The notes under the pieces are model-generated. The model did not search any database. It saw nothing but the letters and a program-made list of their open reading frames with translations, and had not been told where the DNA came from. Below, one piece after another: positions 9,151 through 34,844 of a stretch of 64,000 nt of DNA (position 1 is the first letter of the stretch; the number at the start of each line of letters is the position of its first letter). The translations under genes and the position numbers were made by a program. The stretch is from NCBI GenBank assembly GCA_963700635.1, contig CAVOYH010000003.1, forward strand, positions 1,376,001 to 1,440,000, given 5' to 3'. Source of the DNA: an uncultured Bacteroidota bacterium (lineage in GTDB: Bacteria; Bacteroidota; Ignavibacteria; UBA10030; UBA6906).

Positions 9151-9177
9151 CCATGCGGTGAACAAGGAGAACTCAGC

Positions 9178-10667: not shown

Positions 10668-11225
10668 TGGCGAACCCAGAAGGACATTCTGGATACGCTT
10701 GCCCGTGTTCTCTCCTATCCGGGCGAGGAGTACGGACATCATGTGGCACGGTGTGTGGAGCTCTGCGGTGCGGTGAAGTGGGAAGACCCAGTTGCCGCCC
10801 GGGCGCTCGTGAGCGCCATGAGAAGTTTCTCCGACGCACTCAATGATCTGTCGGACGGAGAACGCGAGGAGCTCTATACCCGGACCTTTGATATCAATCC
10901 GGTCAGCAGTCTGGAAGTTGGCTGGCATTTGTACGGTGAAAGTTATGAACGGGGAGCTTTTCTTGTGCAGATGAGAGATCTCCTGCGGCGGTGTGGCATC
11001 GAGGAATCCAGCGAGCTGCCCGATCATCTTACCCATACCGTGCTTGCCGTCGGAAGGATGGAAGCAGAGGAAGCCGGTAAGTTCGTTTCCGGCCATCTCC
11101 TGAAGGCCATTGACAAAATGCTTGAGGGGTTTGCCGACAAAGGGAATCCCTATGAGCACGTGTTAACATCAACAAAGCTCGTGCTGACCGAGATCCGTAC
11201 GCAGACTGTTCATCAGGAGGTATGA
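10667..11225 (+). CDS. narJ: Nitrate reductase Mo-cofactor assembly chaperone; apparent frameshift just after the start
   Basis: YTRTFD...HLYGESYERG...ELPDHL motifs. The frame extends upstream as KDILDTLARVLSYPGEEY; ATG 10667 overlaps the corrected narH stop but is one base out of frame. Confidence 0.88.
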
Positions 11226-11932
11226 CCATGGTGACCCCGGGGCCGTTTATGTTCGACCAGATTATTTTTGTTGTGTTCCCGTATGTGGCCGTCATCCTGT
11301 TTGTCCTGGTCTCGATCCGTCGATTCAGGACGGAAGCCTACACATTCTCCAGTCTCTCGTCCCAGTTCCTCGAGAATCAGAACCATTTCTGGGGGCTCGT
11401 TCCGTTTCACTTCGGCATTATCACCGTCCTGGCCGGACACCTTATCGCATTCCTGATCCCGCGGGAAATCCTCGCGTGGAACAGCCACCCCGTCCGCCTC
11501 TATATTCTTGAGGGATCAGCCCTGGTTGCATCGCTGCTCACGCTGGTTGGATTGACGTCGATACTCCTGCGCCGGTTCACCGATCCCAGGGTGCGCAAGG
11601 TCACCAGCGGGGCGGATTGGGTTGTGCTCGGGAGTTTTGTGGTGCAGATCCTCAGCGGCCTGTATGTTGCAGTGTTCCATAGCTGGGGCTCCTCCTGGTA
11701 TGCGGCGCTGGCCGCGCCGTATCTCTGGTCGCTCGTTACACTGACTCCCGACATCACCTTCGTCACTGCCATGCCCTGGATGGTTAAAGTACATATTGCC
11801 AGCGCGTGGCTGATGATTGCGTTCGCACCGTTCACACGTCTGGTGCACATCCTTGTCGTTCCGAATCCTTATCTCTGGCGAAAACCGCAGGTGGTGCGAT
11901 GGTACACGAAGTGGTCTCCGCGTCGCAGTTAG
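11222..11932 (+). CDS. narI: Nitrate reductase gamma subunit (diheme cytochrome b)
   Basis: SSLSSQFLE, FHFGI...GH, VHI...PFTRLVH heme ligands, RKPQVV; about 5 TM helices. Confidence 0.95.
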   Translation: MTMVTPGPFMFDQIIFVVFPYVAVILFVLVSIRRFRTEAYTFSSLSSQFLENQNHFWGLVPFHFGIITVLAGHLIAFLIPREILAWNSHPVRLYILEGSALVASLLTLVGLTSILLRRFTDPRVRKVTSGADWVVLGSFVVQILSGLYVAVFHSWGSSWYAALAAPYLWSLVTLTPDITFVTAMPWMVKVHIASAWLMIAFAPFTRLVHILVVPNPYLWRKPQVVRWYTKWSPRRS

Positions 11933-11962
11933 CCACACATCCACGATGCCAGGAATTTTTCC

Positions 11963-13534
11963 ATGCAGGGGTCAAGCATGACGAATAATCGGCAGGGCCT
12001 CATCGTGCTCGCAATGAACACGATGGCGTTCACCGTCTGCTTTGCCGTCTGGATGATGAACGGCGTGCTTGTGACGTTCCTGGTGGAGCAAGGGGTGTTT
12101 GACTGGGACAAGAGTCAGATTGGCTGGTTGATCGGCATCCCGGTCCTGACAGGATCGATCATGCGGCTGCCTGTCGGAGTACTGACCGACAAGTACGGTG
12201 GACGGATTGTCTTCGGGCTGCTCTTGCTGCTCTCGGCAATTCCGACCTACTTCCTGAGCTACGCAACGAGTTACACCGGCTTTCTGCTTGGAAGCCTCGG
12301 GTTCGGCCTTTCGGGGGCTTCGTTTGCCGTCGGTATCGCGTACACATCCCTCTGGTTCAAGAAGGAACGGCAGGGGACAGCGCTGGGCATCTTCGGTGCA
12401 GGGAATGCCGGCTCCGCACTGACGAGTATTGGTGCTCCATGGCTCCTGCTGTATCTGACAGACAATGGCGAAAATCTCGGCGCATGGCGGACGATGCCCC
12501 GGCTCTATGCGGGAGCACTGATTGTCATGGCCATCCTGTTTTTTCTGCTTACAAAGTCGAAGAAAGTCCAACACGGCCAGGAACTCACCCTGACCCAGCG
12601 CCTCGCGCCGCTCCGATACACCCGTGTATGGCGGTTCGGTCTCTACTATTTTGTCGTGTTTGGTGGTTTTGTCTCGCTTGCCCAATGGCTTATTCCATAC
12701 TACGTCAGTGCCTATGGCATGACGGTCGCTCTTGCAGGAATCATGGCGAGCATCTTCAGCTTTCCCTCCGGAGTCATCCGTGCACTCGGCGGGTGGTTAT
12801 CGGATCGTTTTGGAGCGCGGGCTGTCATGTACTGGGTGTTTGGCCTGTGTCTTGTCTGCTTTATTTTGCTTTGTGTCCCGCGAATGGATATCGAGTCGCC
12901 CGGTCAGGGCGTGATGGCTGAAAAGTCAGGCCTGGTGACCGAGGTAACTTCAGAGAGAGTTGTTGCTGCCGGGAACGTCTATCCGCTTCTCGCCAGACCG
13001 GCAATAGACAACACGATGTGGGATGAGGGAACGCTCGTGTGGCCTACGTTTACCTTCTGGCAGGAACCTGTGGCGCAGGTAGGAGAGAGGGTTGAAAAAA
13101 GACAACTGCTTGCCAGAGGGGTCACCCACATCTACTTCCAGGCGAATGTATGGATTTTTACGGGCCTTGTGTTTCTGGTGGGTATCATGATGGGCATCGG
13201 AAAAGCCGGCGTCTATACGTTTATCCCCGAATACTATCCGAATGAAGTGGGTATCGTGGGAGGAATCGTCGGGGTGATCGGCGGACTGGGCGGGTTCGTC
13301 TGCCCCATCATTTTCGGATATCTTCTGAAGGCGACAGGCATATGGACCACGGCCTGGATGTTTCTCTTTCTCGTTACCCTGGCAAGTCATCTCTGGATGC
13401 ATGTTACGGTTAGAAGATTGCTCCGGGAACAGGCTCCCATTCTGGATCGCCAGATAGAAGATCATCGACCGATGGAGGAGATGGCCGAAGAAGTACCCCT
13501 GCGTATCCATCTGGGAAAGAGGAGCAGCTCCTGA
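11963..13534 (+). CDS. narK: NarK1-like nitrate/nitrite MFS transporter with a large loop insertion
   Basis: MRLPVGVLTDKYGGR, GASFAVG...GTALGIFGAGNAG, IRALGGWLSD and GGIVGVIGGLGGF. The start may be 11978. Confidence 0.9.
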   Translation: MQGSSMTNNRQGLIVLAMNTMAFTVCFAVWMMNGVLVTFLVEQGVFDWDKSQIGWLIGIPVLTGSIMRLPVGVLTDKYGGRIVFGLLLLLSAIPTYFLSYATSYTGFLLGSLGFGLSGASFAVGIAYTSLWFKKERQGTALGIFGAGNAGSALTSIGAPWLLLYLTDNGENLGAWRTMPRLYAGALIVMAILFFLLTKSKKVQHGQELTLTQRLAPLRYTRVWRFGLYYFVVFGGFVSLAQWLIPYYVSAYGMTVALAGIMASIFSFPSGVIRALGGWLSDRFGARAVMYWVFGLCLVCFILLCVPRMDIESPGQGVMAEKSGLVTEVTSERVVAAGNVYPLLARPAIDNTMWDEGTLVWPTFTFWQEPVAQVGERVEKRQLLARGVTHIYFQANVWIFTGLVFLVGIMMGIGKAGVYTFIPEYYPNEVGIVGGIVGVIGGLGGFVCPIIFGYLLKATGIWTTAWMFLFLVTLASHLWMHVTVRRLLREQAPILDRQIEDHRPMEEMAEEVPLRIHLGKRSSS

Positions 13535-14869
13535 TGACACAGTCCACAACATGGCTCTCCAGATGGGAGCCGGAAAACACCAGGTTCTGGGAGGAGACCG
13601 GGCGCAAAGTCGCATGGCGTACACTTGACGATCACCACCATCTCTCTTGTCCTTTCCTTCTCGACGTGGTTCATGATGAGCGCCATCGTCGTCCGCCTGC
13701 CGCAGGCCGGCTTTACCTTCGATACAATGCAGCTCTTCTGGCTGACGGCGTTGCCGGGGCTTGCCGGAGGGACGCTGCGAGGCGTGCATATGTTCCTCAT
13801 CCCGATTTTCGGTACGCGTGCGGTTATTTCGACGGCCACGTTTTTGAAGTTGATTCCCTGCCTTGGCATCGGTCTTGCCGTGATGAACCCCGCGACCCCG
13901 TTCTGGGTGTTCATGCTGCTCGCGTTTGCGGCCGGTTTCGGAGGTGGTGATTTCTCTTCGCACATGTCGAGCACCAGTGTGTTCTTTCCAAAACGGCTGC
14001 AGGGGACAGCACTTGGCATTCAAGCCGGTGTGGGGAATTTCGGGGTAAGCCTTGCGCAATTTGTGACCCCATGGATCATCGGGATTTCCGGCTACGGGGT
14101 GTCTCAGACGCTCCTGCTGGGTGGGAAAGCCACTCCCGTCTGGCTGCAGAATGCCGCGCTCTGGTATATCCCCCTGCTGCTCCTGATGGGGGCGCTCGCG
14201 TGGAGGTATCTGCGAAGTATCCCCGTGCGTGCCTCGTTCACCGAACAGCTTGACATCTTCAAGAACAAGCACACGTGGTTCTGCACGCTCACCTACGTGA
14301 TGACGTTCGGTTCGTTCGCCGGGTTTTCCGCGGCCTTTCCACTCCTTATCAAGATCCTCTACGGGAAATTCCCGGATGCACCTGACCCACTCGCGTATGC
14401 TTTTCTCGGACCCCTTGTCGGATCCGCTGCGCGTGTTGCGGCGGGACCGCTGGCTGACAGGGTCGGGGGTGCGATTCTGACCCACGTGACCGGTATCGGA
14501 CTGATAGTCTCGGTGGGAATTATGGCAACCACCGGCCTGCTGACACCGGATTCGCCAGATATGTTCCCGTACTTTCTGGCACTGATGCTTATCATCTTCT
14601 TGCTGTCGGGGATCGGGAATGCCTCCACGTTCAGGCAATACCCGATTATTTTCTCGCATTCTCCCCGGCAGGCGGCGGGGGTCATCGGGTGGACGGCCAC
14701 GGTCGCTGCATACGGTCCGTTTGTCTTTGCAACCCTGATTGGTTCGGCCATCACGCACGCCGGATCTCCCGTCCCGTTTTTTGCCGGAGTGGGAGCGTAC
14801 TACGCCATTGCCACGGCTGTCAACTGGTGGTACTACGTGCGAGCGGGATGTGAAACACCACGTTCGTGA
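13534..14869 (+). CDS. narK: NarK2-like nitrate/nitrite transporter; apparent 1-nt frameshift near 13625
   Basis: N-terminus WLSRWEPENTRFWE...AWRTL continues in another frame as TITTISLVLSFSTW; GGTLR, GFGGGDFSS, YVMTFGSF and SGIGNASTF. Confidence 0.9.
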
Positions 14870-14878
14870 GGAATTTGT

Positions 14879-15544
14879 ATGAAATTGCCGGATAACAGAA
14901 TTCTCACCGTCATCCTGGGCGTTGCCGTACTGTTGACGTTTAGTGTGTTCGTGACGTCCTTCACGTTTAATATAAAGTTGCCGGACAACCATCAGGGTTA
15001 TGAACCGGTCCAGCCGATCCAGTATTCGCACAGACTCCACGCCGGAGAACTCGGCATTCCCTGTCTGTTTTGTCACGGTGGCGCGGAGCGGAGCGGCACT
15101 GCGGGGATACCCTCCGCTGGAGTGTGCATGAATTGCCACAAGTATATCTCAGCTCCGTGGGTGCAGGTGAGGGCCGAGGACCAACGTGCCACAAAGGAGA
15201 AGCGTGAACCGCTGCGTCTCGTGTCTCCTGAACTTGAAAAACTCTATAGTGCCATGGGTCTGAATGCTGAAATGAAGAATGACCAGGCGCATACGCCACG
15301 GCCCATCGAATGGGTGAAGGTGCACTCAGTGCCTGCCTTTGTGCGCTTTGATCACAGCATCCATGTGTCTGCCGGAGTGGAATGCCAGACATGCCATGGT
15401 GCGGTGGAAACCATGGAACGTATCCGGCAGGTGTCCGACCTGTCGATGGGGTGGTGTGTGAACTGCCATCGTGATGTCAATCGCCTGGGTCTTAACGGGA
15501 AAACGGTGTATGCTTCGACCGACTGCGTAGTGTGTCACCACTGA
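14879..15544 (+). CDS. actA: Alternative complex III pentaheme cytochrome c subunit
   Basis: N-terminal TM helix, PVQPIQYSHRLH and five CxxCH motifs (CLFCH, CMNCH, CQTCH, CVNCH, CVVCH). Confidence 0.92.
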   Translation: MKLPDNRILTVILGVAVLLTFSVFVTSFTFNIKLPDNHQGYEPVQPIQYSHRLHAGELGIPCLFCHGGAERSGTAGIPSAGVCMNCHKYISAPWVQVRAEDQRATKEKREPLRLVSPELEKLYSAMGLNAEMKNDQAHTPRPIEWVKVHSVPAFVRFDHSIHVSAGVECQTCHGAVETMERIRQVSDLSMGWCVNCHRDVNRLGLNGKTVYASTDCVVCHH

Positions 15545-15585
15545 ACAGAAACGATCACCGTATTGCTGATGAACGACAGGTGCCA

Positions 15586-18561
15586 ATGAGTCACGACCAT
15601 CAACGACCGGAAGGCCCGGTGCCGTTCGATATAGACCGGCGCTCATTTCTCAAAGTTGCCGGGTTCTCGTTCGCAGGAGTTATGATCGCCGGATGCCAGA
15701 AGGGGGGCGTGGAAAAGGCAATTCCACTTCTGGTCCAACCGGAAGACTCCACGCCGGGCATTGCCTCCTGGTATCCCACCACATGCGCCGGGTGTTCTGC
15801 AGGATGTGGTGTGCTGGCGAAAGAGAGGGAAGGACGGCCCATCAAGCTTGAGGGGAATCCGGAGCATCCACTTTCGCGCGGCGGACTGTGCGCGGTGGGT
15901 CAGGCCTCACTGCTGGGACTGTACGATTCCCGGCGACTGCATACGTCCCTCATTCAAGGAAAGCCCTCTACCTGGAGTCAGATCGATGAGGAAGTGGGGG
16001 CGGAACTCAGACGGATCAAGAGCACGGGAGGTGCCGTGTGCTTCCTGACCGGGACCATCGACAGTCCGACGACGCGGGCCATGATCAATAAGTTCCTGGC
16101 CGGCTTCGCCCGTGCACGACATATCGAGTATGACTCGATGTCCTGCTCGGCCATTCTTGATGCGCATAATATCACGCATGGCAAACGGGTGCTGCCGCGC
16201 TATCGATTTGATAGAGCGGAAGTCATCGTCAGTGTTGATGCGGATTTTCTTGGCAATTGGATTTCGCCGGTTGAATTTACGAAGGGATATCGTTCTGGCC
16301 GGACACTCGGAGGCGATCCTGCTCGCTTTTCATTTCATGCCCAGATCGAGTCGCGTGTCTCACTCACCGGCAGCAATGCAGACGAACGAATCTGTGTTTC
16401 TCCGGATGAAATGCGCGGGAGTCTGGAGAAACTGGCAGAGCTGATTGCGTACAGATCAGGAAAGCAGCCCATTGTTCAGACCACTCTCTCCCCGGAGCTG
16501 GACCAAACGATCGGACGCCTTGCCGACCGGCTCTGGTCCGCTCGCGGCAGAGGGCTCGTACTCTGCGGGGTGAACACTCTCCGGTGTCAGTTGCTCGTGA
16601 ATGTCATCAATGACATGCTGGGGAATTACGGCCAGACCGTTGATCTCACCTTCCCCTCGTACCAGTATGGCGGCGATGATGCCGGGCTGGGAGAACTGTT
16701 GAAGGAAATCTTCTCCGGCGATATCGCCGCCCTGTTTATCGCAGGCGTGAACCCTGTCTATGAACTTCCGGACGGGCCGGCCCTCGGCGAGGCATTGAAG
16801 AAGATTCCGCTGGTGGTAAGTTTTGCGGAACGGGTTGACGAAACTGCCGCCTGTTCCCGGTACGTCTGCCCGCAGCCTCACGCGCTCGAATCGTGGACCG
16901 ATCGCGAACCGGTCGCCGGAATTGTTGCGGTGGCGCAGCCCGCCGTACAACCTCTGATGGACACACGGCATCTCCTTGAGAGCCTCGGTGTTTGGAGCGG
17001 TGAAAAAGAACCTGCGCTCAGTCTGATCCAGCGCGAGTGGAAACGGTCTGTGTTCACGCGACAATCGGGGGAAGTTTCCTTTCCACGATTCTGGGATCGA
17101 ACCCTGGCTTCAGGGTACGCCGAGGTTACCTCCAGGCCGGGTGTTTCACGGTCGTGCGACTACGCGGCACTCCGGGGTACACTGGCACCTGTTGTTCCTC
17201 CCGGTTCAGATACCGATGGGCACACGCTTCTCCTGTATCCTTCATTGACCATGCTGGATGGACGGCACGCGCACAATCCCTGGCTGCACGAACTCCCCGA
17301 TCCCGTCACAAAAGTGGTCTGGGACAACGTCGTATCGGTCTCGCGGAAGACCGCAGAAGCACTTGGTGTGCATGATGGGGATGTGCTCCGCCTTGAGGCG
17401 GATGACCGCTCGGTGGAGTTGCCCGTCCATATCCAACCCGGTCAGCACGATACGGTAGTGGTTGTTGCGCTCGGGTACGGAAGGGAGGGCACGGACCGGT
17501 TTGCGGATATTGGTCCGCATTGGCTTCAGTCACAGCCCACGGTGTCAGCGGGTGAACGTATCGGCAAGAATGCCGCGGTGTTTCTCCGGATGGCCGAGGG
17601 GTGTCTTTCCTCCTCTGGAGGCAGGGTTACGCTCGTTGCCACCGGGCGCAAGCAAACACTTGCCATGACCCAGGAGTACAACTCGCTTCACGAGCCCGAG
17701 CTTCTCGGCGGATCAACTGGTCCACGCCGGCCGATAGTTCAGGAAACCACGCTCGCGTCCTTTATCAAGGACCCATCGGCGGGGAGCTTCCACAAGGAAC
17801 AGCTCGACTCCATGTGGCCGGAGGATCACACCTACACAGGACATCGTTGGGGAATGGCGATTGATCTGACTGCCTGTACAGGCTGCTCCGCGTGTGTGCT
17901 CGGCTGCCAGGTAGAAAACAACATTCCGGTGGTCGGCAAAGATGAGGTCCATCGTAACAGGGAATTGGCGTGGATACGGATTGACCGTTATTACGACGAA
18001 TCCGGAGGCGGGTTCTCTGTTGCCCATCAGCCAATGATGTGTCAGCACTGCGGCAACGCTCCATGCGAGACCGTCTGTCCCGTTCTGGCCACGGTGCACA
18101 GTGAAGAGGGACTAAATCAGCAAATCTACAACCGCTGTGTCGGAACACGGTACTGTGCCAATAACTGTCCGTATAAGATGAGGCGATTCAACTGGTTTCA
18201 ATACCGGCACGGTGATGAAATGCATAAAATGGTACTCAACCCTGATGTTACCGTGCGTGATCGGGGTGTTATGGAAAAATGTTCGTTCTGCATTCAGCGC
18301 ATCCAGGGGGCGAAGATCGAGGCAAAACGAAACGGCAGGGTGGTGCGGGATGGGGATGTGCAGCCCGCATGTGCGCAATCATGTCCGGCGCAGGCTATCG
18401 TCTTTGGGGATACGAATGATCCGGAAAGTGACATATCGAAGCGATTGTCCGATCCCCGCGCGTACCGGGTGCTGGAAGAACTTGGCGTCCGTCCGTCGAT
18501 CGGCTACCTGACGCTGGTGCGAAATCGGGAAGCACAACGCACGGAGACGCATCATGGCTAA
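15586..18561 (+). CDS. actB: Alternative complex III subunit B (molybdopterin-oxidoreductase-like fold plus Fe-S domain)
   Basis: Tat motif DRRSFLK, GRPIKLEGNPEHP, NPWLHELPDP; Fe-S motifs CTGCSACVLGC, CQHCGNAPCETVC, CVGTRYCANNC and CSFC...CAQSCP. Confidence 0.93.
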   Translation: MSHDHQRPEGPVPFDIDRRSFLKVAGFSFAGVMIAGCQKGGVEKAIPLLVQPEDSTPGIASWYPTTCAGCSAGCGVLAKEREGRPIKLEGNPEHPLSRGGLCAVGQASLLGLYDSRRLHTSLIQGKPSTWSQIDEEVGAELRRIKSTGGAVCFLTGTIDSPTTRAMINKFLAGFARARHIEYDSMSCSAILDAHNITHGKRVLPRYRFDRAEVIVSVDADFLGNWISPVEFTKGYRSGRTLGGDPARFSFHAQIESRVSLTGSNADERICVSPDEMRGSLEKLAELIAYRSGKQPIVQTTLSPELDQTIGRLADRLWSARGRGLVLCGVNTLRCQLLVNVINDMLGNYGQTVDLTFPSYQYGGDDAGLGELLKEIFSGDIAALFIAGVNPVYELPDGPALGEALKKIPLVVSFAERVDETAACSRYVCPQPHALESWTDREPVAGIVAVAQPAVQPLMDTRHLLESLGVWSGEKEPALSLIQREWKRSVFTRQSGEVSFPRFWDRTLASGYAEVTSRPGVSRSCDYAALRGTLAPVVPPGSDTDGHTLLLYPSLTMLDGRHAHNPWLHELPDPVTKVVWDNVVSVSRKTAEALGVHDGDVLRLEADDRSVELPVHIQPGQHDTVVVVALGYGREGTDRFADIGPHWLQSQPTVSAGERIGKNAAVFLRMAEGCLSSSGGRVTLVATGRKQTLAMTQEYNSLHEPELLGGSTGPRRPIVQETTLASFIKDPSAGSFHKEQLDSMWPEDHTYTGHRWGMAIDLTACTGCSACVLGCQVENNIPVVGKDEVHRNRELAWIRIDRYYDESGGGFSVAHQPMMCQHCGNAPCETVCPVLATVHSEEGLNQQIYNRCVGTRYCANNCPYKMRRFNWFQYRHGDEMHKMVLNPDVTVRDRGVMEKCSFCIQRIQGAKIEAKRNGRVVRDGDVQPACAQSCPAQAIVFGDTNDPESDISKRLSDPRAYRVLEELGVRPSIGYLTLVRNREAQRTETHHG

Positions 18562-19978
18562 GACCCCCGTGGCTGCCCGCACGTTCCCCGCCGCACACGA
18601 GGAAAAGTCCTCTGGCTGGTCTGTGTTGAGAGAGCCACTCATTCTCGGGCACAAGACGTATGGTGATGTCACGGAAGATGTGTGCTCGCCTCTGGACCAG
18701 AAGGCATCCACGGCCTGGTGGGCGGCGTTTGTGATTTCTCTCTGCGTCTTGCTGCTGGGGGTGGTCTCTGTTGCCTATCAAATCGCAACCGGCGTCGGTG
18801 CGTGGGGATTGAACAACACCGTTGGCTGGGCGTTTGATATCACCAACTTTGTGTTCTGGATTGGTATCGGCCACGCAGGGACGCTGATCTCAGCCATCCT
18901 GTTTCTTTTCCGCCAGAAGTGGAGAACCGGGGTTAACCGTTCGGCGGAAGCGATGACGATATTTGCGGTGATTTGCGCGGGCATTTTTCCCATCATCCAC
19001 ACGGGGCGTCCCTGGCTGGCGTACTGGCTGGTTCCGTATCCGAATTTCCGCGGACCGCTCTGGGTGAACTTCCGGTCTCCGCTGGTGTGGGATATGTTTG
19101 CGATCAGCTGTTATTTCACGATTTCTGCGGTGTTCTGGTTTGTGGGGCTCATTCCTGACTTTGCCACGCTCCGCGACCGGTCAACGTCCGGTCTGAAAAA
19201 ACGGCTCTACAGCTTCCTCAGTTTCGGATGGGATGGATCCAATCGCACCTGGCACCGATACGAAAAGGTATATCTGCTGCTCGCGGGATTGGCGACACCG
19301 TTGGTGGTGTCGGTACACACGATTGTGAGCTGGGACTTTGCAACCTCGGTCATCCCCGGGTGGCACACGACCATCCTCCCTCCCTATTTTGTGGCAGGCG
19401 CGGTGTTCTCCGGTTTTGCCATGGTGCTCACCCTGATGCTAATCGTGCGCACGGTGATGCGAATGGAAGCCTACATTACCCTCCATCATGTTGAACAGAT
19501 GTGCAAGATCATTCTCACCACGGGAGGCATGGTGGCGCTGGCCTATGCCACCGAGATCTTTGTGGCATATTATTCCGGGAACGAATACGAACGATTCGCT
19601 TTTATCAACAGGGCCCTCGGACCGTACGCCTGGGCGTACTGGACGATGGTCTCGTGTAATGTTCTGGTACCTCAGTTCCTGTGGTTTAAGAAGATCAGAA
19701 GGAGCATCGTTGCCGTTTTTATTCTTTCCATTTTCATCAATATCGGCATGTGGTTTGAGCGGTACGTGATCATCATGACGTCCCTGACCAGGGATTATCT
19801 CCCGGCAGGGTGGTCCGGCTTTACACCCACTCTTATTGACCTCGGCACGCTGATCGGAAGCTTCGGGTTGTTTTTTACTCTCTTCCTGCTCTTTGCCCGG
19901 TTTCTCCCGATGATTGCCATCGGTGAAGTGAAGGGGGTTCTCCGGTACGGCCGTACACCGAAAGGGGATTCAGCATGA
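18554..19978 (+). CDS. actC: Alternative complex III quinol-binding NrfD/PsrC-type subunit
   Basis: FVFWIGIGHAGTLISA, NRSAEAMT, HTGRPW, SPLVWD, SWDFA and WFERY. Confidence 0.95.
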   Translation: MAKTPVAARTFPAAHEEKSSGWSVLREPLILGHKTYGDVTEDVCSPLDQKASTAWWAAFVISLCVLLLGVVSVAYQIATGVGAWGLNNTVGWAFDITNFVFWIGIGHAGTLISAILFLFRQKWRTGVNRSAEAMTIFAVICAGIFPIIHTGRPWLAYWLVPYPNFRGPLWVNFRSPLVWDMFAISCYFTISAVFWFVGLIPDFATLRDRSTSGLKKRLYSFLSFGWDGSNRTWHRYEKVYLLLAGLATPLVVSVHTIVSWDFATSVIPGWHTTILPPYFVAGAVFSGFAMVLTLMLIVRTVMRMEAYITLHHVEQMCKIILTTGGMVALAYATEIFVAYYSGNEYERFAFINRALGPYAWAYWTMVSCNVLVPQFLWFKKIRRSIVAVFILSIFINIGMWFERYVIIMTSLTRDYLPAGWSGFTPTLIDLGTLIGSFGLFFTLFLLFARFLPMIAIGEVKGVLRYGRTPKGDSA

Positions 19979-20499
19979 GCCGCCGCGTATTGGTAAGTGT
20001 GTTCGGGAGTGAGGAGGATATCCTCGGCGCCACAACGCAGGCACGAGAGCGCGGTTATGACATCATTGATACCTATACGCCGTATGCGGTGCACGGACTC
20101 GATGCGGCCATGGGAATCACCCCCACACGTCTTGCGTACGTGTGTTTTGCGCTGGGCCTGACCGGCGCAGTAGCCAAACTGGGTTTCCAGATCTGGACGT
20201 CGGCATGGGATTGGCCCGTGAATGTGGGAGGCAAGCCTCTCGTGTCAATCCCTGCGTTTGTCCCGGTGACCTTTGAAGTCATGGTATTGTTTGCCGGCGT
20301 CGGAACCGTTCTGGCCTTCTTTCTGGTGAGCCGGCTCTTTCCGGGAAAAAAACCGAAGGTGGTGTTTCCACGGGTGACCGACGATCATTTTGTTCTTGTG
20401 CTTGACGAGAAGGATGCTTCGTTTGACGTCAGGAAAGTGGAACTCATGTTCAAACCGTATGCCCCGCTCCACATGGAGGAGCGGGTGCTGCAGGAGTAG
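19975..20499 (+). CDS. actD: Alternative complex III subunit D (DUF3341)
   Basis: YTPYAVHGLD, WPVNVGGKP and PAFVPVTFE. Confidence 0.93.
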   Translation: MSRRVLVSVFGSEEDILGATTQARERGYDIIDTYTPYAVHGLDAAMGITPTRLAYVCFALGLTGAVAKLGFQIWTSAWDWPVNVGGKPLVSIPAFVPVTFEVMVLFAGVGTVLAFFLVSRLFPGKKPKVVFPRVTDDHFVLVLDEKDASFDVRKVELMFKPYAPLHMEERVLQE

Positions 20500-20502
20500 C
20501 GC

Positions 20503-21099
20503 ATGTCGAGCAAGGCCCTGAACCGTGTTCTGTTCGTCATTCTCGTATTCATGGTGGGTACGGTCTTTCTTGTTCGCCGGGATTACACCACGAAAAACGT
20601 GGAATTCCTGCCGGGGATGGTTTCCGGTGTTGCGTACGGACCACAATCCGCCAACCCGATTTTTCAGGATCGAAAGACCCTTCAGATGCCGGTGAAAGGA
20701 ACGGTGGCGCGGGGGTTTGAACCGCTGCTGTACACCCCGGATCCGGAAGGCGCGCTTCGGGCCGGGCTGGAGTTAGGCAGTTCGCTGGATCCGAAAGACA
20801 GCACCGGGGATCTTGCCCGCGGGGCGTTTGTCTTTAACACATTCTGTACACCCTGCCATGGATCAGGCGGAGCGGGCGATGGCCTGATTCCCCAGCGCGG
20901 ATTTCCGCCCCCGCCCTCGCTCCTTGCAGAGCATGCCGTCACCATGAAGGACGGGCAGATCTTCCATATCATCACCTATGGTCAGCGCACTATGCCTGCC
21001 CTTGCCGGGCAAGTGGTGCGCGACGATCGGTGGCGTGTGGTGAACTTTATCCGGACGCTGCAGAAACATTCAAAACCGACTCCCCTCGCCGCACAATGA
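20503..21099 (+). CDS. actE: Alternative complex III monoheme cytochrome c subunit
   Basis: PVKGTVARG, CTPCHG, GQIFHIITYG...MP, DRW; N-terminal hydrophobic anchor. Confidence 0.9.
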   Translation: MSSKALNRVLFVILVFMVGTVFLVRRDYTTKNVEFLPGMVSGVAYGPQSANPIFQDRKTLQMPVKGTVARGFEPLLYTPDPEGALRAGLELGSSLDPKDSTGDLARGAFVFNTFCTPCHGSGGAGDGLIPQRGFPPPPSLLAEHAVTMKDGQIFHIITYGQRTMPALAGQVVRDDRWRVVNFIRTLQKHSKPTPLAAQ

Positions 21100-22283
21100 A
21101 ACCCGAACCCCACATCCCGCATACCACGTTCCGAATGTCGGAACGGCTCCGGAAGACCCTTCTCGGCGTCACCCTTGCCGGATTGTCCATCGCGGCGCTT
21201 GGCGTCATTGTATCACCCGAACGTACGTGGCCCAATATTCTCCTGGCCAATTATTATCTGATGAGTCTCGGACTGGCGGGCGTGTTCTTTGTCGCGCTGC
21301 AGTATGTGTCCAATGCGGGCTGGCCGACGGCATTCCGGCGTGTGCCCGAAGCGATGATAACAACCATCCCGGTCTCCGGACTGGTGATGCTCGTTATCCT
21401 GTTCGGCATTCCCGCGCTCTACGAATGGAGCCACGTGTCGGCCGTGGAGCAGAGCAGGGTGCTGCAGGCAAAAGCAGGGTGGCTGAATATCCCCTTCTTT
21501 GCCGTCCGCACCGTTCTCTATCTGACGGTATGGGTTGTCCTTGCCTCCGCCATCGTCCGTTTGTCCCGAAAACAGGATCTGGATGGCGGGGTGGTGCACA
21601 CGCTCAGGAACAGAAAATTCTCGGCGGCATTTATCGTTGTCTTTGCTTTGACATTCACGCTTGCCAGCATGGACTGGATCATGTCGCTGGAACCCCACTG
21701 GTTCAGCACCATCTTCGGCGTGTACAATTTCAGCGGTCTGTTTCTGAACGGTCTTGCGACGATCACGTTGAGTGTCATTCTCCTGCGCCGGTGGGGGTTT
21801 CTGGCGGGGGTTGTCAGCGATGCGCATCTGCATGATCTCGGCAAACTTCTCTTTGCTTTCAGTACCTTCTGGATGTACATCTGGTTCAGCCAGTACATCC
21901 TCATATGGTATGCGAACATCCCCGAAGAAGTGCGGTACTACACCACGCGTTCACAGGGAGGGTGGCTGGTATTGACGATCGTGAATGTGGTTTTCAACTG
22001 GTTGATACCGTTTCTCATCCTGCTCCCCGCCTGGACGAAGAAAAACGAAGCGGTTCTGTTTCGCGTCTGCATCATTCTCATGATCGGTCACTGGATTGAT
22101 TTGTTCTGGATGATTCTTCCTCCCTTTATGAAAGGGAATCCCACGTTGTTCTTCTGGGAAATCGGTCCCATAGCTGCTGCAATCGGTGGATTCTTCCTGT
22201 TGACATTCAGGACTTTGGCCAGGCACAAACTCGTCCCGGCGAAGGACCCGTACCTCGCTGAAAGTATCACACGAGACCATTAA
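21096..22283 (+). CDS. actF: Alternative complex III membrane subunit F
   Basis: [32 protein letters not shown]...WMYIWFSQ...WYANIPEE; ATGA overlap with actE. Confidence 0.92.
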
Positions 22284-29250: not shown

Positions 29251-29613
29251 TCATTTCGCCGTCACCGGTCCCAAATAGATCACGATACTCATATCCTCCG
29301 GCTGAGTGCCGAAGATGTAGTGAATGCTTCTGATGCTTCTTTGCAGGAAGTCCGCGACCCTTCCGCGCAACACGTGCTCTGACTGTTTGAATAGCTGCTC
29401 GCGCAATTGTTGATACGACGAAACGGTGGAGCCATTCCGGTCGAGCAAATCCTTTTCCGCAGGTGAAAGAAGATTCCGGATGATCACCACGGCGATGTCT
29501 TCGGTGAGTTCCGTCTTCATGTCTGTGGGAGTTTCTCCAACATGTGTGACAAGGAAATTCTTCACAATAAGATTGACTCCAATTGCCAGACTTCCTGCCG
29601 AGGTTTCCGCCAT
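29251..29613 (-). CDS. DUF2294 / MpsC-family protein (divergent paralog)
   Basis: HVGETP...IRNLLSPAEKDL...QQLREQL parallels the neighbouring paralog; GGAG RBS before ATG 29613. Confidence 0.75.
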   Translation of the reverse strand: MAETSAGSLAIGVNLIVKNFLVTHVGETPTDMKTELTEDIAVVIIRNLLSPAEKDLLDRNGSTVSSYQQLREQLFKQSEHVLRGRVADFLQRSIRSIHYIFGTQPEDMSIVIYLGPVTAK

Positions 29614-29663
29614 AGAATCTCCATGCCTGATGACGCAAGAGAGGGAATGAGAACCGGTCGACC

Positions 29664-29790
29664 AGAATGAAGAAACCAACACTGGTCATCGCTCGTGATG
29701 ACTCGTGTTGGTTTACCAACCACCAAATCGCCCCTGCAGCAATTCGCAGGGAATATTTCGTGATCCGTCTACCCGGTATGTACCAGCTTC
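29664..29790 (-). ncRNA. Candidate cis-regulatory structured leader (attenuator) upstream of the second DUF2294 gene
   Basis: Lies between the promoter and the ATG. Contains hairpin CCCUGC/GCAGGG (29732-29751) and a long hairpin AAACCAACAC..GUCAUC/GAUGAC..GUGUUGGUUU (29673-29714) followed by CUUCAUUCU. Confidence 0.5.
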
Positions 29791-29796
29791 ATGTCA

Positions 29797-29825
29797 AATA
29801 TACGGCAAGACGTCAGCGTTGTCAA
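29797..29825 (-). promoter_or_regulatory. Sigma70-type promoter
   Basis: TTGACA-17 bp-TATATT on the minus strand. Confidence 0.75.
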
Positions 29826-29880
29826 GCACAATCGGCACAATCGGGTCTGCGCAAAAGAGCACGGCGGTGCAGCGAAAAAA

Positions 29881-30234
29881 TCAGGGCGCCTTCATCAGCG
29901 TGAATACGATTATACGTTCCCCCGTCCTGGCGCTGATATCGGAATGCATACTCGTTACGTCGCGGCGTGTGATGTCATTGATGAGACGTATGAGCATATC
30001 CTTTGAGTTTTCGATCAGCGTCTGCCGGACTTCCTTGAGCAGCCTGATCCCCGCGGGGTCTTTTGCCAGCTGAATCTCTGCCGGTGTCAGAACGCCCTCC
30101 AGCCGGACAATAATCATATCGTCGAGGAAGTGCGTGCTCGTGCGGGCGGGTCCACGTCCCATGTGTTCCCGCTCGAACGTGACCATTGCTTCGCTAATCT
30201 GAGCTTCAATTTGTCCGATAGATTTCTGGGGCAT
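29881..30234 (-). CDS. DUF2294 / MpsC-family protein
   Basis: EAQISEA...FEREHMGRGP...RLEGVLTPAE...KEVR...SMHSDISARTGERIIVF. Confidence 0.9.
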   Translation of the reverse strand: MPQKSIGQIEAQISEAMVTFEREHMGRGPARTSTHFLDDMIIVRLEGVLTPAEIQLAKDPAGIRLLKEVRQTLIENSKDMLIRLINDITRRDVTSMHSDISARTGERIIVFTLMKAP

Positions 30235-31029: not shown

Positions 31030-32652
31030 TCACGCAGTGGCGGGCACGGTATCCTTGGTGTCAAGTTTTGCGGGCAGGAAAATCCCGATCACACCGCGCA
31101 ACCCGACACTCATCACGATATTAAAGAAGAACGCAAGGAATGCCAGCAGGAGCAACGATCCGGCCAATGCCGCAAAGACCATGTAAGTGTTAAACTCCCC
31201 GTCCACATACAGCGTGCGTCGCAACATTCCGCCAAGTCCGGCCATGCCCATAAACGCACCCATGCCGATTCCCCCTACCAGGTGTGCCCAGAAATGTACA
31301 GTGGTCAGGCGCTGGCTGTAAAGTTTAGCGCCGTTCGTGAGTATGGGCAGCAGAAGGTAGATCGCAGCATACAGGGTCATGGACAATCCTACGAGAATCG
31401 CCACGTGCACATGCGGACCCACAACCCATTGCGTGTTATGGAGAATCCTGTTAAGTCCGATATCGGCCTGCATGATACCTGCAGGAACAGCCAGGGCAAA
31501 CCCGAGTAATCCCCCGAGGAGAAACTTCAACGGATTGCTCATCGTCAACGGTCTCGCGCTCCACAGCGTAACAAGCGTGATAAAGAAGGCCAGCCCCTGT
31601 GTGATCAATTCAAAGGCCGTGACCATTTCTCCCGAGACCACCTTGAGGAAGCCCGGTTGCGCCTGGTCGGAGAGCAAGTGGTGCGACCATACGGTCCATG
31701 ATACGACCAATTCGACGAAGAGGGCGGCGCGGGCGACGTTCTCCATGTACAACTTCTTTCCGGTGATCATCATGGCAAGAAGGTACCAGGTCCCGGCAAC
31801 GAAGATGAGGACGAGTCCATCGGCAATAAGATCCAATCCCCACCAGAACCAGTTCTTGTAGAGCAACGCATCCACCGCTGTGTGTTTCAGGTCATACCCC
31901 ATCAGAGCCGCGACCATGTAGACCAGAATCAGCACTCCCGTAAAGAGGATGATAGCTGCATTCAGCGCCACATCCACGGTTCCCCGTGCGACTGCCGCCA
32001 CCGGCAGGGAGACGAGGTGTTCCTTCTTGGTTTTGGAAAACATCCGGGAGAAGCCGCTGAGACCCAGCGCGGAGCGCAGAAGGGGACCAGCCGGTTGTTT
32101 CTCCCAACCTTCCGGAGTGTAGGTGATGGTCTTGAAAATGTTGACGACGAACAGTGCCGTTCCAACCATCACCAGAGCGATGCCCAGGATGAACACCGTT
32201 CCACCGATCACACTGAACTGCGTGAAGTCCGCAGGCAGGGGCCAGTACAAGGTGTACAGTGGAGCATAGTGTGAGAGAAACCCCGCCGCCCAGAAAACGA
32301 ATGTTCCGACTGCAATCAGTCCGAAGGTCCAGTTCCCCATGGGGATGCTCCAAAGAGGTTTTTTCATGAGGTACGGGACCAGAAACAGGAAAGCTCCAAA
32401 GACAATTGAGTAGGTTGAACCGAAAATGCCCACGAGGGGATGGGCGGTCAGGATGGCAAAGTATTGATCCGTGGTCACGGTGGGGACCGGGGTGACCGCA
32501 TGGACACGCATGATCATCCCCTCGGTGACCGCAAAACCGTAGTACAACAATCCAACAACAACGAAGCGTAATGTCATTTTCTGCATGGGAGTCAGCGAGT
32601 CGGCGCGGAAGGCACCTTGTTCGCCATTCAGCAGTGTCTGAAGAAAGCTCAT
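31030..32652 (-). CDS. Heme-copper oxidoreductase subunit I with non-canonical active site (gNOR-like putative nitric oxide reductase)
   Basis: 12 or more TM helices, TAHPL, YTLYWPL, WSHHLL, HNTQWVVGPHVH and GMLRR. Helix VI reads WWGLDLIADGLVL instead of WxxGHPxVY. Confidence 0.85.
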   Translation of the reverse strand: MSFLQTLLNGEQGAFRADSLTPMQKMTLRFVVVGLLYYGFAVTEGMIMRVHAVTPVPTVTTDQYFAILTAHPLVGIFGSTYSIVFGAFLFLVPYLMKKPLWSIPMGNWTFGLIAVGTFVFWAAGFLSHYAPLYTLYWPLPADFTQFSVIGGTVFILGIALVMVGTALFVVNIFKTITYTPEGWEKQPAGPLLRSALGLSGFSRMFSKTKKEHLVSLPVAAVARGTVDVALNAAIILFTGVLILVYMVAALMGYDLKHTAVDALLYKNWFWWGLDLIADGLVLIFVAGTWYLLAMMITGKKLYMENVARAALFVELVVSWTVWSHHLLSDQAQPGFLKVVSGEMVTAFELITQGLAFFITLVTLWSARPLTMSNPLKFLLGGLLGFALAVPAGIMQADIGLNRILHNTQWVVGPHVHVAILVGLSMTLYAAIYLLLPILTNGAKLYSQRLTTVHFWAHLVGGIGMGAFMGMAGLGGMLRRTLYVDGEFNTYMVFAALAGSLLLLAFLAFFFNIVMSVGLRGVIGIFLPAKLDTKDTVPATA

Positions 32653-32684: not shown

Positions 32685-33251
32685 TTATTGAGCGTTGATG
32701 TGATCGCCGACCACCTCGAAAACATCCTTCTTAATCATGTGGATACCCCTGGGTCCGGAGTATTCCGTCGAACGAATAGAATACACTCCGGGTTTGTCAA
32801 ATTTCCAGAGGATGTCATTGGCATGACCCGGGACGACCTGCATCTGGAAGACCATCGAGTTGTCTTCTCTGAACAGGCCAAATCCATAGGTAAGGTCCCT
32901 GGATGTGACGTCGAACTGGACGATCTCCTCACATCTGGCGATCAGTTTTTCGGCGGGCAATTGAAATTTGTGATCGGCCACAATGATGGAAAAGGTTCTG
33001 TCAGGCTTGATGTCCGCCCGATTGAGGTCCATCGGCGCCCAGGGTATCGTATTGTATGTGATGATGTGCAGAGACACGCCGAGGACGACCAGGAAGCCGA
33101 CAAAAGAATAGAAGAGCGAAGTTCTGATGGTACTGGATGTGCCCTTTTTCGTGACTTTGTACGCAAACCACGCCATGAGCGCCATCATCGCGATGACATA
33201 CAAGGTGTACGCGATGGTCTGCCCCGCGAGGACAACAGAGGAGTCAACCAT
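32685..33251 (-). CDS. Heme-copper oxidoreductase subunit II-like protein lacking CuA ligands
   Basis: Two TM helices plus a cupredoxin domain (VTSRDLTYGF, QVVPG, FDKPGVY); STEYSGPRGIHM replaces CxExCGxxHxxM. Confidence 0.85.
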   Translation of the reverse strand: MVDSSVVLAGQTIAYTLYVIAMMALMAWFAYKVTKKGTSSTIRTSLFYSFVGFLVVLGVSLHIITYNTIPWAPMDLNRADIKPDRTFSIIVADHKFQLPAEKLIARCEEIVQFDVTSRDLTYGFGLFREDNSMVFQMQVVPGHANDILWKFDKPGVYSIRSTEYSGPRGIHMIKKDVFEVVGDHINAQ

Positions 33252-33407: not shown

Positions 33408-34844
33408 TCACACAGTGAATCTCACATAAAGTCTGACAGCCGAGTTCGCACTATGAGTGTCCGGATAGTACTTGTAATCGCCATACCGTTCGTACAACAT
33501 GAAGTCGATTCCCAGGACTGCCGCATGGTGCAGGGCGTAATCCGCTCCGATCTTCAGGAGCCCGACAAATTCTTCGCCCTCTGCTCCGCTCAGGGTATGG
33601 ATCCAGAACCGTTTGTAGTCGAAGGAGATACCTCCGGAATTGTCTATCTGGAAATGCGTCCCGATCCGGGCACTCGCACCGGGGCCGATATTGTAGTCCT
33701 TTCCATCCTCCGATGCGTACTCGGAATTTGTTGCACCCATGAGGATTGCGGAGACACTCAAAGAATTTGTTATTGTGACACCGGGTGAGAGTTGGAACTG
33801 ATTGGTCAGGCGGGAAGTCAGGCTTGTTCCCGAAAGCTTGTAAATGGTATTAATAATCATGTCGATCTCTTTGTAGACTCCGACAACATTGGTCGGGGTA
33901 CCGAACAGCCTGACCTTCGTATCCCAGATCACACCACTTCCGTACACGGCAGTGATGTTGTCGTCTTCCGAGAGACTCAGTTCTGCATGGACGGTAAAAT
34001 AGTCGAAGGGATCTTTGTGCTTGTTCGCCGCAAACAGATCGCCGTACTCCAGGTCAAATCCCACGAAACCATATCCTTTGTTACGCACAAGCGTGCGATC
34101 CAGGAAGACATTATTGCCGCCAACGGATACCCAGACTGAAAAAGGAGGTCGGTCGGCGGGCATACCTTCCCGCCACATCGCGCCCTGAAAAAGACGGTTC
34201 AAGCCGTAGACAGGGTCAACGGCAAAGGCGGAGAATTCACGGAGCACACGTTCAAAACCGTATGCGCTCTCATCGATGATGAGATTGGATACACGAAAGG
34301 AAATCTCGCCGAGGATGGTTCCGGTGACAGGGGTATTTACGATGTCGTTATATGACGGCGGCTCATTTTCCATGGCAATCTCCCAGATTGCGCTGCCACC
34401 CAGCGAGTACAGCGAAGATTCCCAGAAGTTCAATCCGTTTGATCTGGCCGCATTAAAATAGGCAGCTCCGTTGTACGGATGCGCGAACTGGTTCATGAGA
34501 TACCCATCCCTATCCCACACGAATCCTGTCTTGATGTTGTCCTTGATTGTTTGAATGCTAATTTCGGACCAACCCGTTTTCGTCAGGTATCTGTTGAATG
34601 CCCATACGCCGATATCGATTCCAACGACCTCCCCCGCAGCCAGCCAGTATCGCTTTTCGGGCAATGCCTGGTTCTGCGCGGGGAGGATCTCTTCGGTTAT
34701 CCGGGATGTGTCGGCTCTCGCCATGGAGAAGTGTGGCGATTGTGTTTTGAATTGCCCGACTGCCGTGCCGACTGACAGAGCGAGCACAATCGGTGCGGCC
34801 AGGAAGAGAGACCGGCCGACGGTTGTCGATTTATGTTTTGACAT
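33408..34844 (-). CDS. DUF3943-domain outer-membrane protein
   Basis: Signal peptide, FVWDRD...NQFAHPYNG...AARSNG..FWES...WE...ENEPPSYND, beta-strand-rich C-terminus. Confidence 0.75.
   Translation of the reverse strand: MSKHKSTTVGRSLFLAAPIVLALSVGTAVGQFKTQSPHFSMARADTSRITEEILPAQNQALPEKRYWLAAGEVVGIDIGVWAFNRYLTKTGWSEISIQTIKDNIKTGFVWDRDGYLMNQFAHPYNGAAYFNAARSNGLNFWESSLYSLGGSAIWEIAMENEPPSYNDIVNTPVTGTILGEISFRVSNLIIDESAYGFERVLREFSAFAVDPVYGLNRLFQGAMWREGMPADRPPFSVWVSVGGNNVFLDRTLVRNKGYGFVGFDLEYGDLFAANKHKDPFDYFTVHAELSLSEDDNITAVYGSGVIWDTKVRLFGTPTNVVGVYKEIDMIINTIYKLSGTSLTSRLTNQFQLSPGVTITNSLSVSAILMGATNSEYASEDGKDYNIGPGASARIGTHFQIDNSGGISFDYKRFWIHTLSGAEGEEFVGLLKIGADYALHHAAVLGIDFMLYERYGDYKYYPDTHSANSAVRLYVRFTV

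What the first reader, a model, noticed from the sequence alone, without database searches (positions are those of the whole stretch)
31030..32652. Heme-copper enzyme with Asp in place of the helix-VI His and no cross-link Tyr (gNOR-like)
Seen: the heme ligands (TAH, HVH) and the HH pair are intact, but helix VI is WWGLDLIADGLVL, with no His and no Tyr; a Glu (FELITQ) lies in the helix after the HH pair. Known: O2 reductases need the His-Tyr cofactor, and the proposed gNOR family, derived from B-family oxidases, is described as having a His-to-Asp ligand change. To my knowledge its activity is predicted rather than shown. Automatic annotation would call this cytochrome c oxidase. With Nar and ACIII nearby it suggests a cryptic denitrification chain; no nirS, nirK or nosZ is in the window.
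Basis: partly seen in the sequence, partly recalled or inferred. Interest (0 to 1): 0.75.

Follow-up and report, generated by a model that had tools for sequence, protein, structure and literature searches.

The report
gNOR-family putative nitric oxide reductase
This two-gene unit encodes an ordinary member of a known but never biochemically tested family of membrane enzymes thought to turn nitric oxide into nitrous oxide, and the genomes that carry the family suggest it mostly clears nitric oxide rather than serving as a step of denitrification.

Summary
Observation confirmed. Window 32652-31030 (minus strand) encodes a 540-aa heme-copper subunit I with intact heme ligands and HH pair. Helix VI has Asp274 at the metal-ligand His position and a second Asp278 at the cross-link Tyr position.

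Both Asp are invariant in 119 of 119 GTDB loci. Close relatives (84% and 81% identical over fragments) sit in genomes that Murali 2024 scores as gNOR. So this is a typical gNOR, not a new family. NO reduction remains predicted; I found no biochemical test.

The 'cryptic denitrification chain' is poorly supported. nar/ACIII lie 8.7 kb away on the other strand. In the published gNOR table only 3 of 58 Bacteroidota genomes have nirK/nirS, and 0 of 95 gNOR-only genomes have a full pathway. In related loci the recurring neighbours are an Rrf2 regulator (26 of 80) and hemerythrin, NnrS or YgbA genes (7 of 80); the window itself has no Rrf2 or hemerythrin gene.

Best reading: a quinol-fed NO sink with a 2-His/carboxylate non-heme iron site. 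The rest of this genome was not available.

The parts
31030..32652 (-). gNOR subunit I (540 aa, heme-copper oxidoreductase fold)
   Evidence: AlphaFold model pLDDT 87, pTM 0.89; best structural match Z 39.7, rmsd 2.5 A over 460 residues to oxidase subunit I
32685..33251 (-). gNOR subunit II (188 aa): two predicted membrane helices plus cupredoxin domain; CuA ligands replaced (His to Tyr122, Cys to Ser161, Cys to Ser165)
   Evidence: family profile best matches Thermus ba3 subunit II/CuA domain, E 1.6e-12 to 4e-11; same replacements in 71 of 72 loci where the motif was detected; membrane helices inferred from hydrophobic stretches
31819..31845 (-). Helix VI active-site motif W270-x3-D274-x3-D278 (D274 at the metal-ligand His position, D278 at the cross-link Tyr / NOR Glu position)
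   Evidence: W/+4/+8 spacing equals W482/H486/E490 of qNOR
31678..31683 (-). H324-H325, the two remaining His ligands of the non-heme metal
   Evidence: invariant in 72 of 72 full-length relatives
31609..31611 (-). E348 in helix VIII, third invariant carboxylate near the site (inferred counterpart of the qNOR/cNOR helix-VIII Glu)
   Evidence: 72 of 72; not among the subunit-II-facing residues of that helix in the complex model, which only weakly suggests it points inward
31405..31413 (-). H414 and H416: high-spin and low-spin heme ligands
   Evidence: 72 of 72
32440..32442 (-). H71, low-spin heme ligand
   Evidence: 72 of 72
32521..32523 (-). E44 in helix I, candidate quinol ligand (aligns with D74 of aa3-600 menaquinol oxidase)
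   Evidence: 72 of 72 in gNOR and absent from the 6 outgroup rows that cover it; alignment to 6kob
31972..31986 (-). R223-x3-D227 in helix V, family-specific polar pair of unknown role (possible proton path or binding site)
   Evidence: R 71 of 72, D 72 of 72, not in outgroups

Best explanation
A two-subunit gNOR acting as a quinol:NO oxidoreductase whose main job is to remove NO, not to carry a denitrification pathway. Shown by sequence: heme ligands intact, no His-Tyr cofactor, no CuA. Inferred steps: (1) menaquinol binds near helices I-II (E44, Q63/His) and reduces the low-spin heme; (2) electrons pass to the high-spin heme on H414; (3) beside it a non-heme metal, probably Fe, is held by H324, H325 and D274, with D278 as a further ligand or proton shuttle and E348 in the second shell; (4) two NO are coupled to N2O plus water; (5) subunit II is structural and caps the periplasmic face; (6) little or no energy is conserved because most K-channel positions are not kept. 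In this cell the likely NO source is nitrite made by its Nar, or NO from neighbouring organisms. Separate odds: gNOR membership about 0.97; NO-to-N2O chemistry about 0.7; the confidence below is for chemistry plus NO-sink role together.
For: Family definition (His to Asp, CuA-less cupredoxin subunit, proposed quinol donor) read in PMC11214002; D at the Tyr position listed for gNOR in PMC8756737 Table A4. All met here. Motif-bearing loci L102, L023, L118 and L086 come from genomes scored GNOR=1 in Datasets S6/S8 and are 84%/166 aa, 81%/310 aa, 66%/120 aa and 45%/209 aa identical to the query. The query nests in a 77-row Asp-x3-Asp clade with SH-aLRT 100. A 2-His-1-Glu Fe myoglobin mimic reduces NO (statement; reference title only). 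NO-sink role: nirK/nirS in 10 of 95 gNOR-only genomes, 0 of 95 complete; in Campylobacterota nirS goes with cNOR (25 of 25) and not with gNOR alone (1 of 11), Fisher p 4e-8, not corrected for relatedness. Neighbours within 3 ORFs in 80 loci: Rrf2 regulator in 26; hemerythrin/RIC in 6, NnrS in 1, YgbA in 1 (7 loci together); Crp/Fnr in 3. Subunit I-II complex model: score 0.91, best of 3 controls 0.00, runs agree in at least 94% of contacts, partner pLDDT at least 88; the mark was reached by 116 of 157 solved and 2 of 215 mismatched pairs; a pass by likeness to solved oxidases is likely.
Against: No gNOR has been assayed in anything I could read. The metal and its ligands were not modelled: no tool returned coordinates. 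The quinol site is partial: the Arg and Glu/Gln partners are absent (F40, A66) and the His position is Q in 36, H in 24 of 72. The Rrf2 proteins score far below the NsrR cut-off (best 96 of 182 bits; those of the upstream type 43-61) and could sense O2, redox or iron instead. The window itself has no Rrf2, hemerythrin or Crp hit and no operator match upstream (score 0.9). 35 of 95 gNOR-only genomes have none of nap/nar/nir/nos, so their NO source is unclear. Most genomes are incomplete MAGs, which lowers nir counts. Sulfur-handling genes lie within 3 ORFs in 5 of 80 loci, about as often as hemerythrins. Murali 2024 itself proposes a role in sulfide-tolerant denitrification.
Confidence: 0.5

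Rival explanations
1. Same chemistry, but it is the respiratory NOR of a Nar-Nir-gNOR(-Nos) denitrification chain in this organism (first reader; Murali's sulfide-tolerant denitrification idea).
For: A full narGHJI, two narK-type transporters, a diheme cytochrome c and ACIII lie in the window. ACIII plus that cytochrome implies periplasmic cytochrome-c acceptors somewhere in the genome (inference). 49 of 160 gNOR genomes have nirK/nirS. One locus has gNOR beside heme d1 genes (L074) and one beside nar (L008).
Against: 39 of those 49 genomes also have another NOR. 0 of 10 nar-positive Bacteroidota gNOR genomes have nirK/nirS. No linkage to nar/ACIII here. Loss of CuA removes the usual entry point for electrons from ACIII via cytochrome c.
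Confidence: 0.2
2. An O2-scavenging quinol oxidase that works without the His-Tyr cofactor, using a carboxylate-rich heme/iron site, to protect anaerobes.
For: Derived from oxidase ancestors. Many carriers belong to mostly anaerobic groups such as Bacteroidales and Anaerolineae (lifestyle from general knowledge). Rubrerythrin (L048), cytochrome c peroxidase (L022) and heme o synthase (L001, L018) occur next to some copies. The top PDB sequence match of the family profile is aa3-600 quinol oxidase, effectively tied with mycobacterial aa3.
Against: All characterised heme-copper O2 reductases need the cross-linked Tyr, and Tyr-less eNOR showed no O2 activity. Scores are far below oxidase cut-offs: 88 vs 671 bits (CtaD), 51 vs 583 (CcoN).
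Confidence: 0.12
3. A different reaction: the 2-His/2-Asp/Glu site handles another substrate (nitrite, a sulfur or S-N species) or another metal.
For: It is the only HCO family reported to have lost an active-site His. 47 of 160 carrier genomes lack all of nap/nar/nir/nos. Sulfur transporter, rhodanese, TauE or DsrE genes are within 3 ORFs in 5 of 80 loci. The family is reported as enriched in sulfidic habitats.
Against: No recurring partner enzyme for such chemistry appears in 80 loci. The mimic supports NO reduction by a 2-His-1-carboxylate iron. The sulfur genes are common families and I have no background rate for them.
Confidence: 0.13
4. A decayed oxidase or a sequencing artefact.
For: Loss of a His, the Tyr and the CuA ligands looks like decay in a single sequence.
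Against: The same residues are fixed in 119 of 119 loci across bacteria and archaea, down to about 40% overall identity; the ORF is intact and folds confidently.
Confidence: 0.01

Closest known systems
gNOR family (Hemp & Gennis 2008 and Sievert 2008 as cited; Murali et al. 2024 PNAS, PMC11214002)
   Same: His to Asp in helix VI, Asp at the Tyr position, CuA-less cupredoxin subunit II, two-gene layout, same taxa (Ignavibacteria, Bacteroidales, Sulfurovum, Persephonella, Anaerolineae, Caldarchaeales).
   Different: Nothing defining. This copy lacks the upstream Rrf2 gene seen in many Bacteroidota loci.
cNOR / qNOR / nNOR (3 His + Glu, FeB)
   Same: No Tyr; carboxylate at W+8; a helix-VIII Glu 21-23 residues after the HH pair.
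   Different: They keep the helix-VI His and use Glu, not Asp; cNOR has a cytochrome c subunit and qNOR is a fused single chain.
eNOR, bNOR, sNOR (B-family-derived NORs)
   Same: Tyr-less, cupredoxin subunit II, proposed or shown NO reductases.
   Different: They keep three His, have Gln or Asn at the Tyr position, keep CuA and have conserved channel residues.
Quinol oxidases bo3 and aa3-600
   Same: CuA-less subunit II; acidic residue in helix I at the quinol site (E44 = D74).
   Different: They have His-Tyr and CuB and reduce O2; their Arg and Glu/Gln quinol ligands are missing here.
Thermus ba3 oxidase (B family)
   Same: Best structural relative of subunit II by sequence.
   Different: Has CuA, CuB, His-Tyr and a K-channel.

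Membership tests
gNOR | HCO subunit I with the three heme His ligands and the HH pair | tested here: met
gNOR | Asp in place of the helix-VI His | tested here: met
   D274 aligns with His in all 7 outgroups and without a gap to a WWGLH-x3-N relative. HMMER alignments to PDB chains shift the register by one and put L273 on the His; either register leaves no His.
gNOR | No cross-link Tyr; Asp at that position | tested here: met
   D278 aligns with Tyr/Asn of outgroups; 'D' listed for gNOR in PMC8756737 Table A4
gNOR | Cupredoxin subunit II lacking CuA ligands | tested here: met
   window 33251-32685
gNOR | Falls in the clade of published gNORs | tested here: met
   Indirect: 81-84% identity over fragments from genomes scored GNOR=1; genome matching rests on strain or WGS placeholder names. 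Single clade, SH-aLRT 100; those fragments were too short for the tree.
gNOR | Scores with the authors' gNOR HMM; direct comparison with the six reference accessions | not testable with these tools
   HMMs are not held; alignment supplement is a picture; accessions seen but their sequences were not obtained
gNOR | [quoted passage not shown] | tested here: inconclusive
   Subunit II best matches ba3 subunit II; subunit I tree has unlabelled, long-branch outgroups; PDB profile and fold hits rank A-family chains first
gNOR | Conserved quinol-binding residues | tested here: inconclusive
   E44 invariant and aligned with aa3-600 D74; Arg and Glu/Gln partners absent; His position variable. The defining paper (Murali 2022) is not held.
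gNOR | No canonical K proton channel | tested here: inconclusive
   By my inferred mapping from Dataset S1 numbers, only Y290 is kept; positions 352 and 355 vary. R223/D227 and T351 are invariant with unknown role.
gNOR | NO reductase activity; identity of the non-heme metal | not testable with these tools
   needs protein; untested for the family in what I read
A/B/C oxygen reductases | Three His on CuB plus cross-linked His-Tyr | tested here: not met
A/B/C oxygen reductases | Curated family score (CtaD, CcoN, SoxB) | tested here: not met
   88/671, 51/583 and 37/700 bits
cNOR / qNOR / nNOR | Helix VI His-x3-Glu | tested here: not met
   Asp-x3-Asp instead
eNOR / sNOR / bNOR | Helix VI His-x3-Gln/Asn and CuA in subunit II | tested here: not met

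The most novel reading that the evidence does not exclude
gNOR is not a denitrification enzyme and may not be an NO reductase at all. Its 2-His/2-Asp/Glu heme-metal site could run chemistry new to the superfamily (Tyr-free O2 scavenging, or nitrite/sulfur-nitrogen turnover) under control of a dedicated Rrf2 sensor. Current N2O-source surveys that count gnor as an N2O gene would then be miscounting.
Probability: 0.2. Interest if true: 0.75.

Novelty: new member of a known kind. Interest (0 to 1): 0.3.

Why it matters
The locus itself is one of thousands: the homolog search returned 3,409 proteins at E<=0.001, with the best 119 all at 80% identity or more. It matters as a compact two-gene construct for the first assay of a family whose activity is still assumed, yet already counted in N2O budgets. 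The side result is more useful than the locus. gNOR mostly occurs without NO-forming nitrite reductase and often behind an Rrf2 regulator with a conserved operator, which points to NO removal. I did not find this stated in print (searches), but figures, the SI appendix of Murali 2024, and the 2008 and 2022 papers were not visible to me.

Tried and rejected
1. Modelling which Asp binds the metal: the AlphaFold job gave confidence and secondary structure only; the complex job with two hemes and Fe did not score or list ligand contacts. Unresolved.
2. Single-sequence PDB search gave only weak cbb3 hits. A helix I-II profile hit cbb3 helices IX-X and bo3 only at E about 3, so it gave no clean quinol-site test.
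3. Accession numbers for relatives were not obtained, so named reference gNOR proteins were not compared directly.
4. Promoter/terminator scan around the genes was at chance level: 3 vs 2.3 +/- 1.5 and 4 vs 2.7 +/- 1.7. No exact FNR/Crp box in the window (box patterns recalled).
5. The Rrf2 operator is not upstream of the window's subunit II (score 0.9, rank 145).
6. 'New family' rejected: all directly testable gNOR features were met.
7. The FIND preprint says gNOR has a His-to-Glu heme-ligand change. Not seen here: H71, H414 and H416 are His in 72 of 72.
8. One literature search returned only irrelevant papers; one found nothing.
9. The near/far test for hemerythrin (4 near, 0 far) is circular because the HMM was built from near hits; I give it little weight.
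10. Metagenome and viral contig collections were not searched.

Full report
1. Observation. The stretch 31030-32652 is one intact ORF on the minus strand, 540 aa, matching Pfam COX1. An AlphaFold model from a 48-sequence alignment is confident (pLDDT 87, pTM 0.89) and matches oxidase subunit I (best Z 39.7, rmsd 2.5 A, 460 residues). NCBIfam scores are far below the oxidase cut-offs, although homologs are routinely labelled cytochrome c oxidase.

2. Register of helix VI. Aligned with seven His-bearing outgroups, D274 falls on the His and D278 on the Tyr/Asn, with one extra residue after D278. A relative with WWGLH-x3-N aligns with no gap there. The spacing W, +4, +8 equals W482/H486/E490 of Alcaligenes qNOR, whose helix-VIII E559 lies 21 residues after its HH pair; E348 lies 23 after ours (passages, PMC10256718). 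HMMER alignments to PDB chains instead pair L273 with the His, so the register rests on the multiple alignment. Neither register supplies a His or Tyr. The site therefore has two His, two Asp and a nearby Glu. Which carboxylates bind metal is not shown.

3. Conservation. Both Asp are present in 120 of 120 proteins of the first search, the query included. This is a capped sample, not a census, and 10-kb flanks were fetched for 80. At 50% clustering only two full-length relatives stand out (74% and 48% identity) before a drop to other HCOs at about 25-31%. A tree of 87 proteins of at least 436 aa (shorter loci left out) gives one 77-row clade with SH-aLRT 100. The query sits among Bacteroidota, Ignavibacteria, Acidobacteria and Spirochaetota sequences; outgroup placement is unreliable because of long branches.

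4. The missed second gene. 32 nt upstream, 33251-32685 encodes a 188-aa protein with a weak CoxB match. Its family profile best matches Thermus ba3 subunit II, with the CuA His and both Cys replaced by Tyr, Ser, Ser. The same replacements occur in 71 of the 72 loci where the motif was detected; 8 of 80 had no match, 4 because the contig ends and 4 with a homolog my pattern missed. A complex model supports binding of the two subunits: 0.91 versus best control 0.00, at least 94% contact agreement, partner pLDDT at least 88; the mark was reached by 116 of 157 solved and 2 of 215 mismatched pairs. Likeness to solved oxidases could explain the pass.

5. Membership. Murali 2024 (PMC11214002; main text parts 1-4 of 6 read; figures and SI appendix not visible) defines gNOR by Asp for an active-site His, a CuA-less cupredoxin subunit and possible quinol ligands, and verifies activity only for eNOR. 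PMC8756737 Table A4 (passage) gives D at the Tyr position. I could not run their HMM or fetch their six reference proteins (accessions seen). Instead, four of my loci come from genomes scored GNOR=1 in Datasets S6/S8: CG2_30_36_16 (L102, 84% over 166 aa), JABMQB01 (L023, 81% over 310 aa), JAADDL01 (L118, 66% over 120 aa) and HR02 (L086, 45% over 209 aa). The match is by strain or WGS placeholder name. CG2-30-36-16 has only A, C and gNOR enzymes, and an Asp-x3-Asp protein cannot be A or C. A 2026 paper still lists only eNOR as confirmed (passages, PMC13592168).

6. Electron donor. The family profile aligns E44 with D74 of aa3-600, Q63 with H94, F40 with R70 and A66 with E97. That these four are aa3-600's quinol ligands is recalled; the equivalent bo3 cluster Arg71-Asp75-His98-101 is. 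E44 is invariant and family-specific; position 63 is Q 36, H 24, other 12 of 72. With CuA gone, quinol is the likely donor, but the site is only partly canonical.

7. Is it part of a denitrification chain? The window has a diheme cytochrome c, narGHJI, two narK-type transporters and ACIII in one run (4629-22283, plus strand), 8.7 kb from the gNOR pair, with G6PD, lactonase, Usp, MpsC-family and cold-shock genes between. I hand-copied the 160 rows of the GNOR sheet of Dataset S8 and counted. nirK or nirS is present in 49 of 160 genomes, 39 of which have another NOR. Of 95 gNOR-only genomes, 10 have nir and none has a full pathway. Bacteroidota: 3 of 58 have nir, and 0 of 10 nar-positive ones. 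Campylobacterota: nirS in 25 of 25 with cNOR and 1 of 11 with gNOR alone. Caveats: mostly incomplete MAGs, related genomes, no nrfA column, and no family-wide cNOR/eNOR control.

8. Neighbours. In 80 loci the only widespread partners are subunit II and an Rrf2 regulator: 26 loci, 22 of them directly upstream on the same strand. These keep a three-Cys/His motif, pass the Rrf2 superfamily cut-off in 7 of 8 tested, and reach no named subfamily cut-off. In 22 upstream regions a palindrome (about AAATGATAC-N6-GTATCATTT) scored 14.8 bits versus 8.0-8.8 for shuffles; 17 of 22 sites scored 9 or more, 14 of them starting 24-28 nt before the start codon. The AT-rich start context may inflate this. Of 264 other ORFs within three genes scanned with Pfam (plus two cluster representatives), hemerythrin/RIC occurred in 6 loci, NnrS 1, YgbA 1, Crp/Fnr 3, nar 1, heme d1 genes 1, and sulfur-handling genes 5; no NirK or NosZ family was hit. 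The window copy has no Rrf2, hemerythrin or Crp hit.

9. Mechanism and verdict. Most likely menaquinol reduces the low-spin heme, then the high-spin heme/non-heme iron pair held by H324, H325 and D274 (with D278 and E348 as ligand or proton carriers) couples two NO to N2O, as an NO sink with little energy gain. Only the residue inventory and gene layout are shown; metal, donor, substrate and role are inferred. It is a new member of a known, untested family. The specialist interest lies in the assay and in the mismatch with nir, not in this locus.

10. Other papers, passages only: bioRxiv 2021.10.15.464467, bioRxiv 592808, PMC6094997, PMC3362086, PMC8906906, PMC13556223. Supplements of PMC11214002 seen: S1 and S5 whole, S4 gNOR rows, S6 part 1 and searched rows (file cut), S8 parts 1 and 139-142. 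Murali 2022 is not held; Lin 2010 was seen as a reference title; Hemp & Gennis 2008 and Sievert 2008 only as citations. bioRxiv supplements were not visible and may already list the residues discussed here.

Noticed in passing
window 4629-22283 (+): One co-directional run: membrane-anchored diheme cytochrome c (NarC-like by recall), narGHJI, two narK-type transporters, then ACIII actABCDEF-like genes, with no oxidase genes after it. One search listed a single review holding all the terms, which I did not read.
   Followed up: partly
L002, L008, L013, L015, L019, L021, L030 and others, just before the Rrf2 start codon: Conserved palindrome, probably the operator of an autoregulated Rrf2-subunit II-subunit I operon in Bacteroidota; absent from the window.
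   Followed up: partly
L057:1713-2288 (+), Thermofilaceae MAG: An archaeal gNOR whose subunit II keeps the CuA ligands (His, two Cys, His, Met), 1 of 72; a possible intermediate before CuA loss.
   Followed up: no
L001:7644-8555, L018:11499-12476: Heme o synthase-like gene beside gNOR in two Chloroflexia loci, hinting at heme o in those enzymes.
   Followed up: no
L007, L011, L017, L022, L024, L025 and others, directly downstream of subunit I: A 200-aa membrane protein with no Pfam or NCBIfam match (one representative tested) follows gNOR in 14 loci, nearly all Campylobacterota; a YcxB-like gene follows it in 7. Possible extra subunit or assembly factor.
   Followed up: no
L011, L035, L056, L063, L064: In several Campylobacterota the gNOR pair lies inside a nitrate-reductase-like molybdoenzyme cluster with a DmsB/DmsC-type fusion; L063 also has a nitrite/sulfite reductase gene.
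   Followed up: no
L005 near 9000-11400: Subunit I appears as two consecutive ORFs (245 and 325 aa), probably a frameshift or assembly error.
   Followed up: no
window 29251-30234 (-): Two tandem MpsC-family (PF10057) small genes next to a universal stress protein and a cold-shock gene, downstream of gNOR.
   Followed up: no
window 33408-34844 (-): DUF3943 gene directly upstream of subunit II, same strand; not a recurring neighbour in 80 loci.
   Followed up: partly
window 51776-51852: Short repeats inside the 1197-aa VWA/secretion-tail protein, in a region with a weak ice-binding beta-roll Pfam match below cut-off.
   Followed up: no
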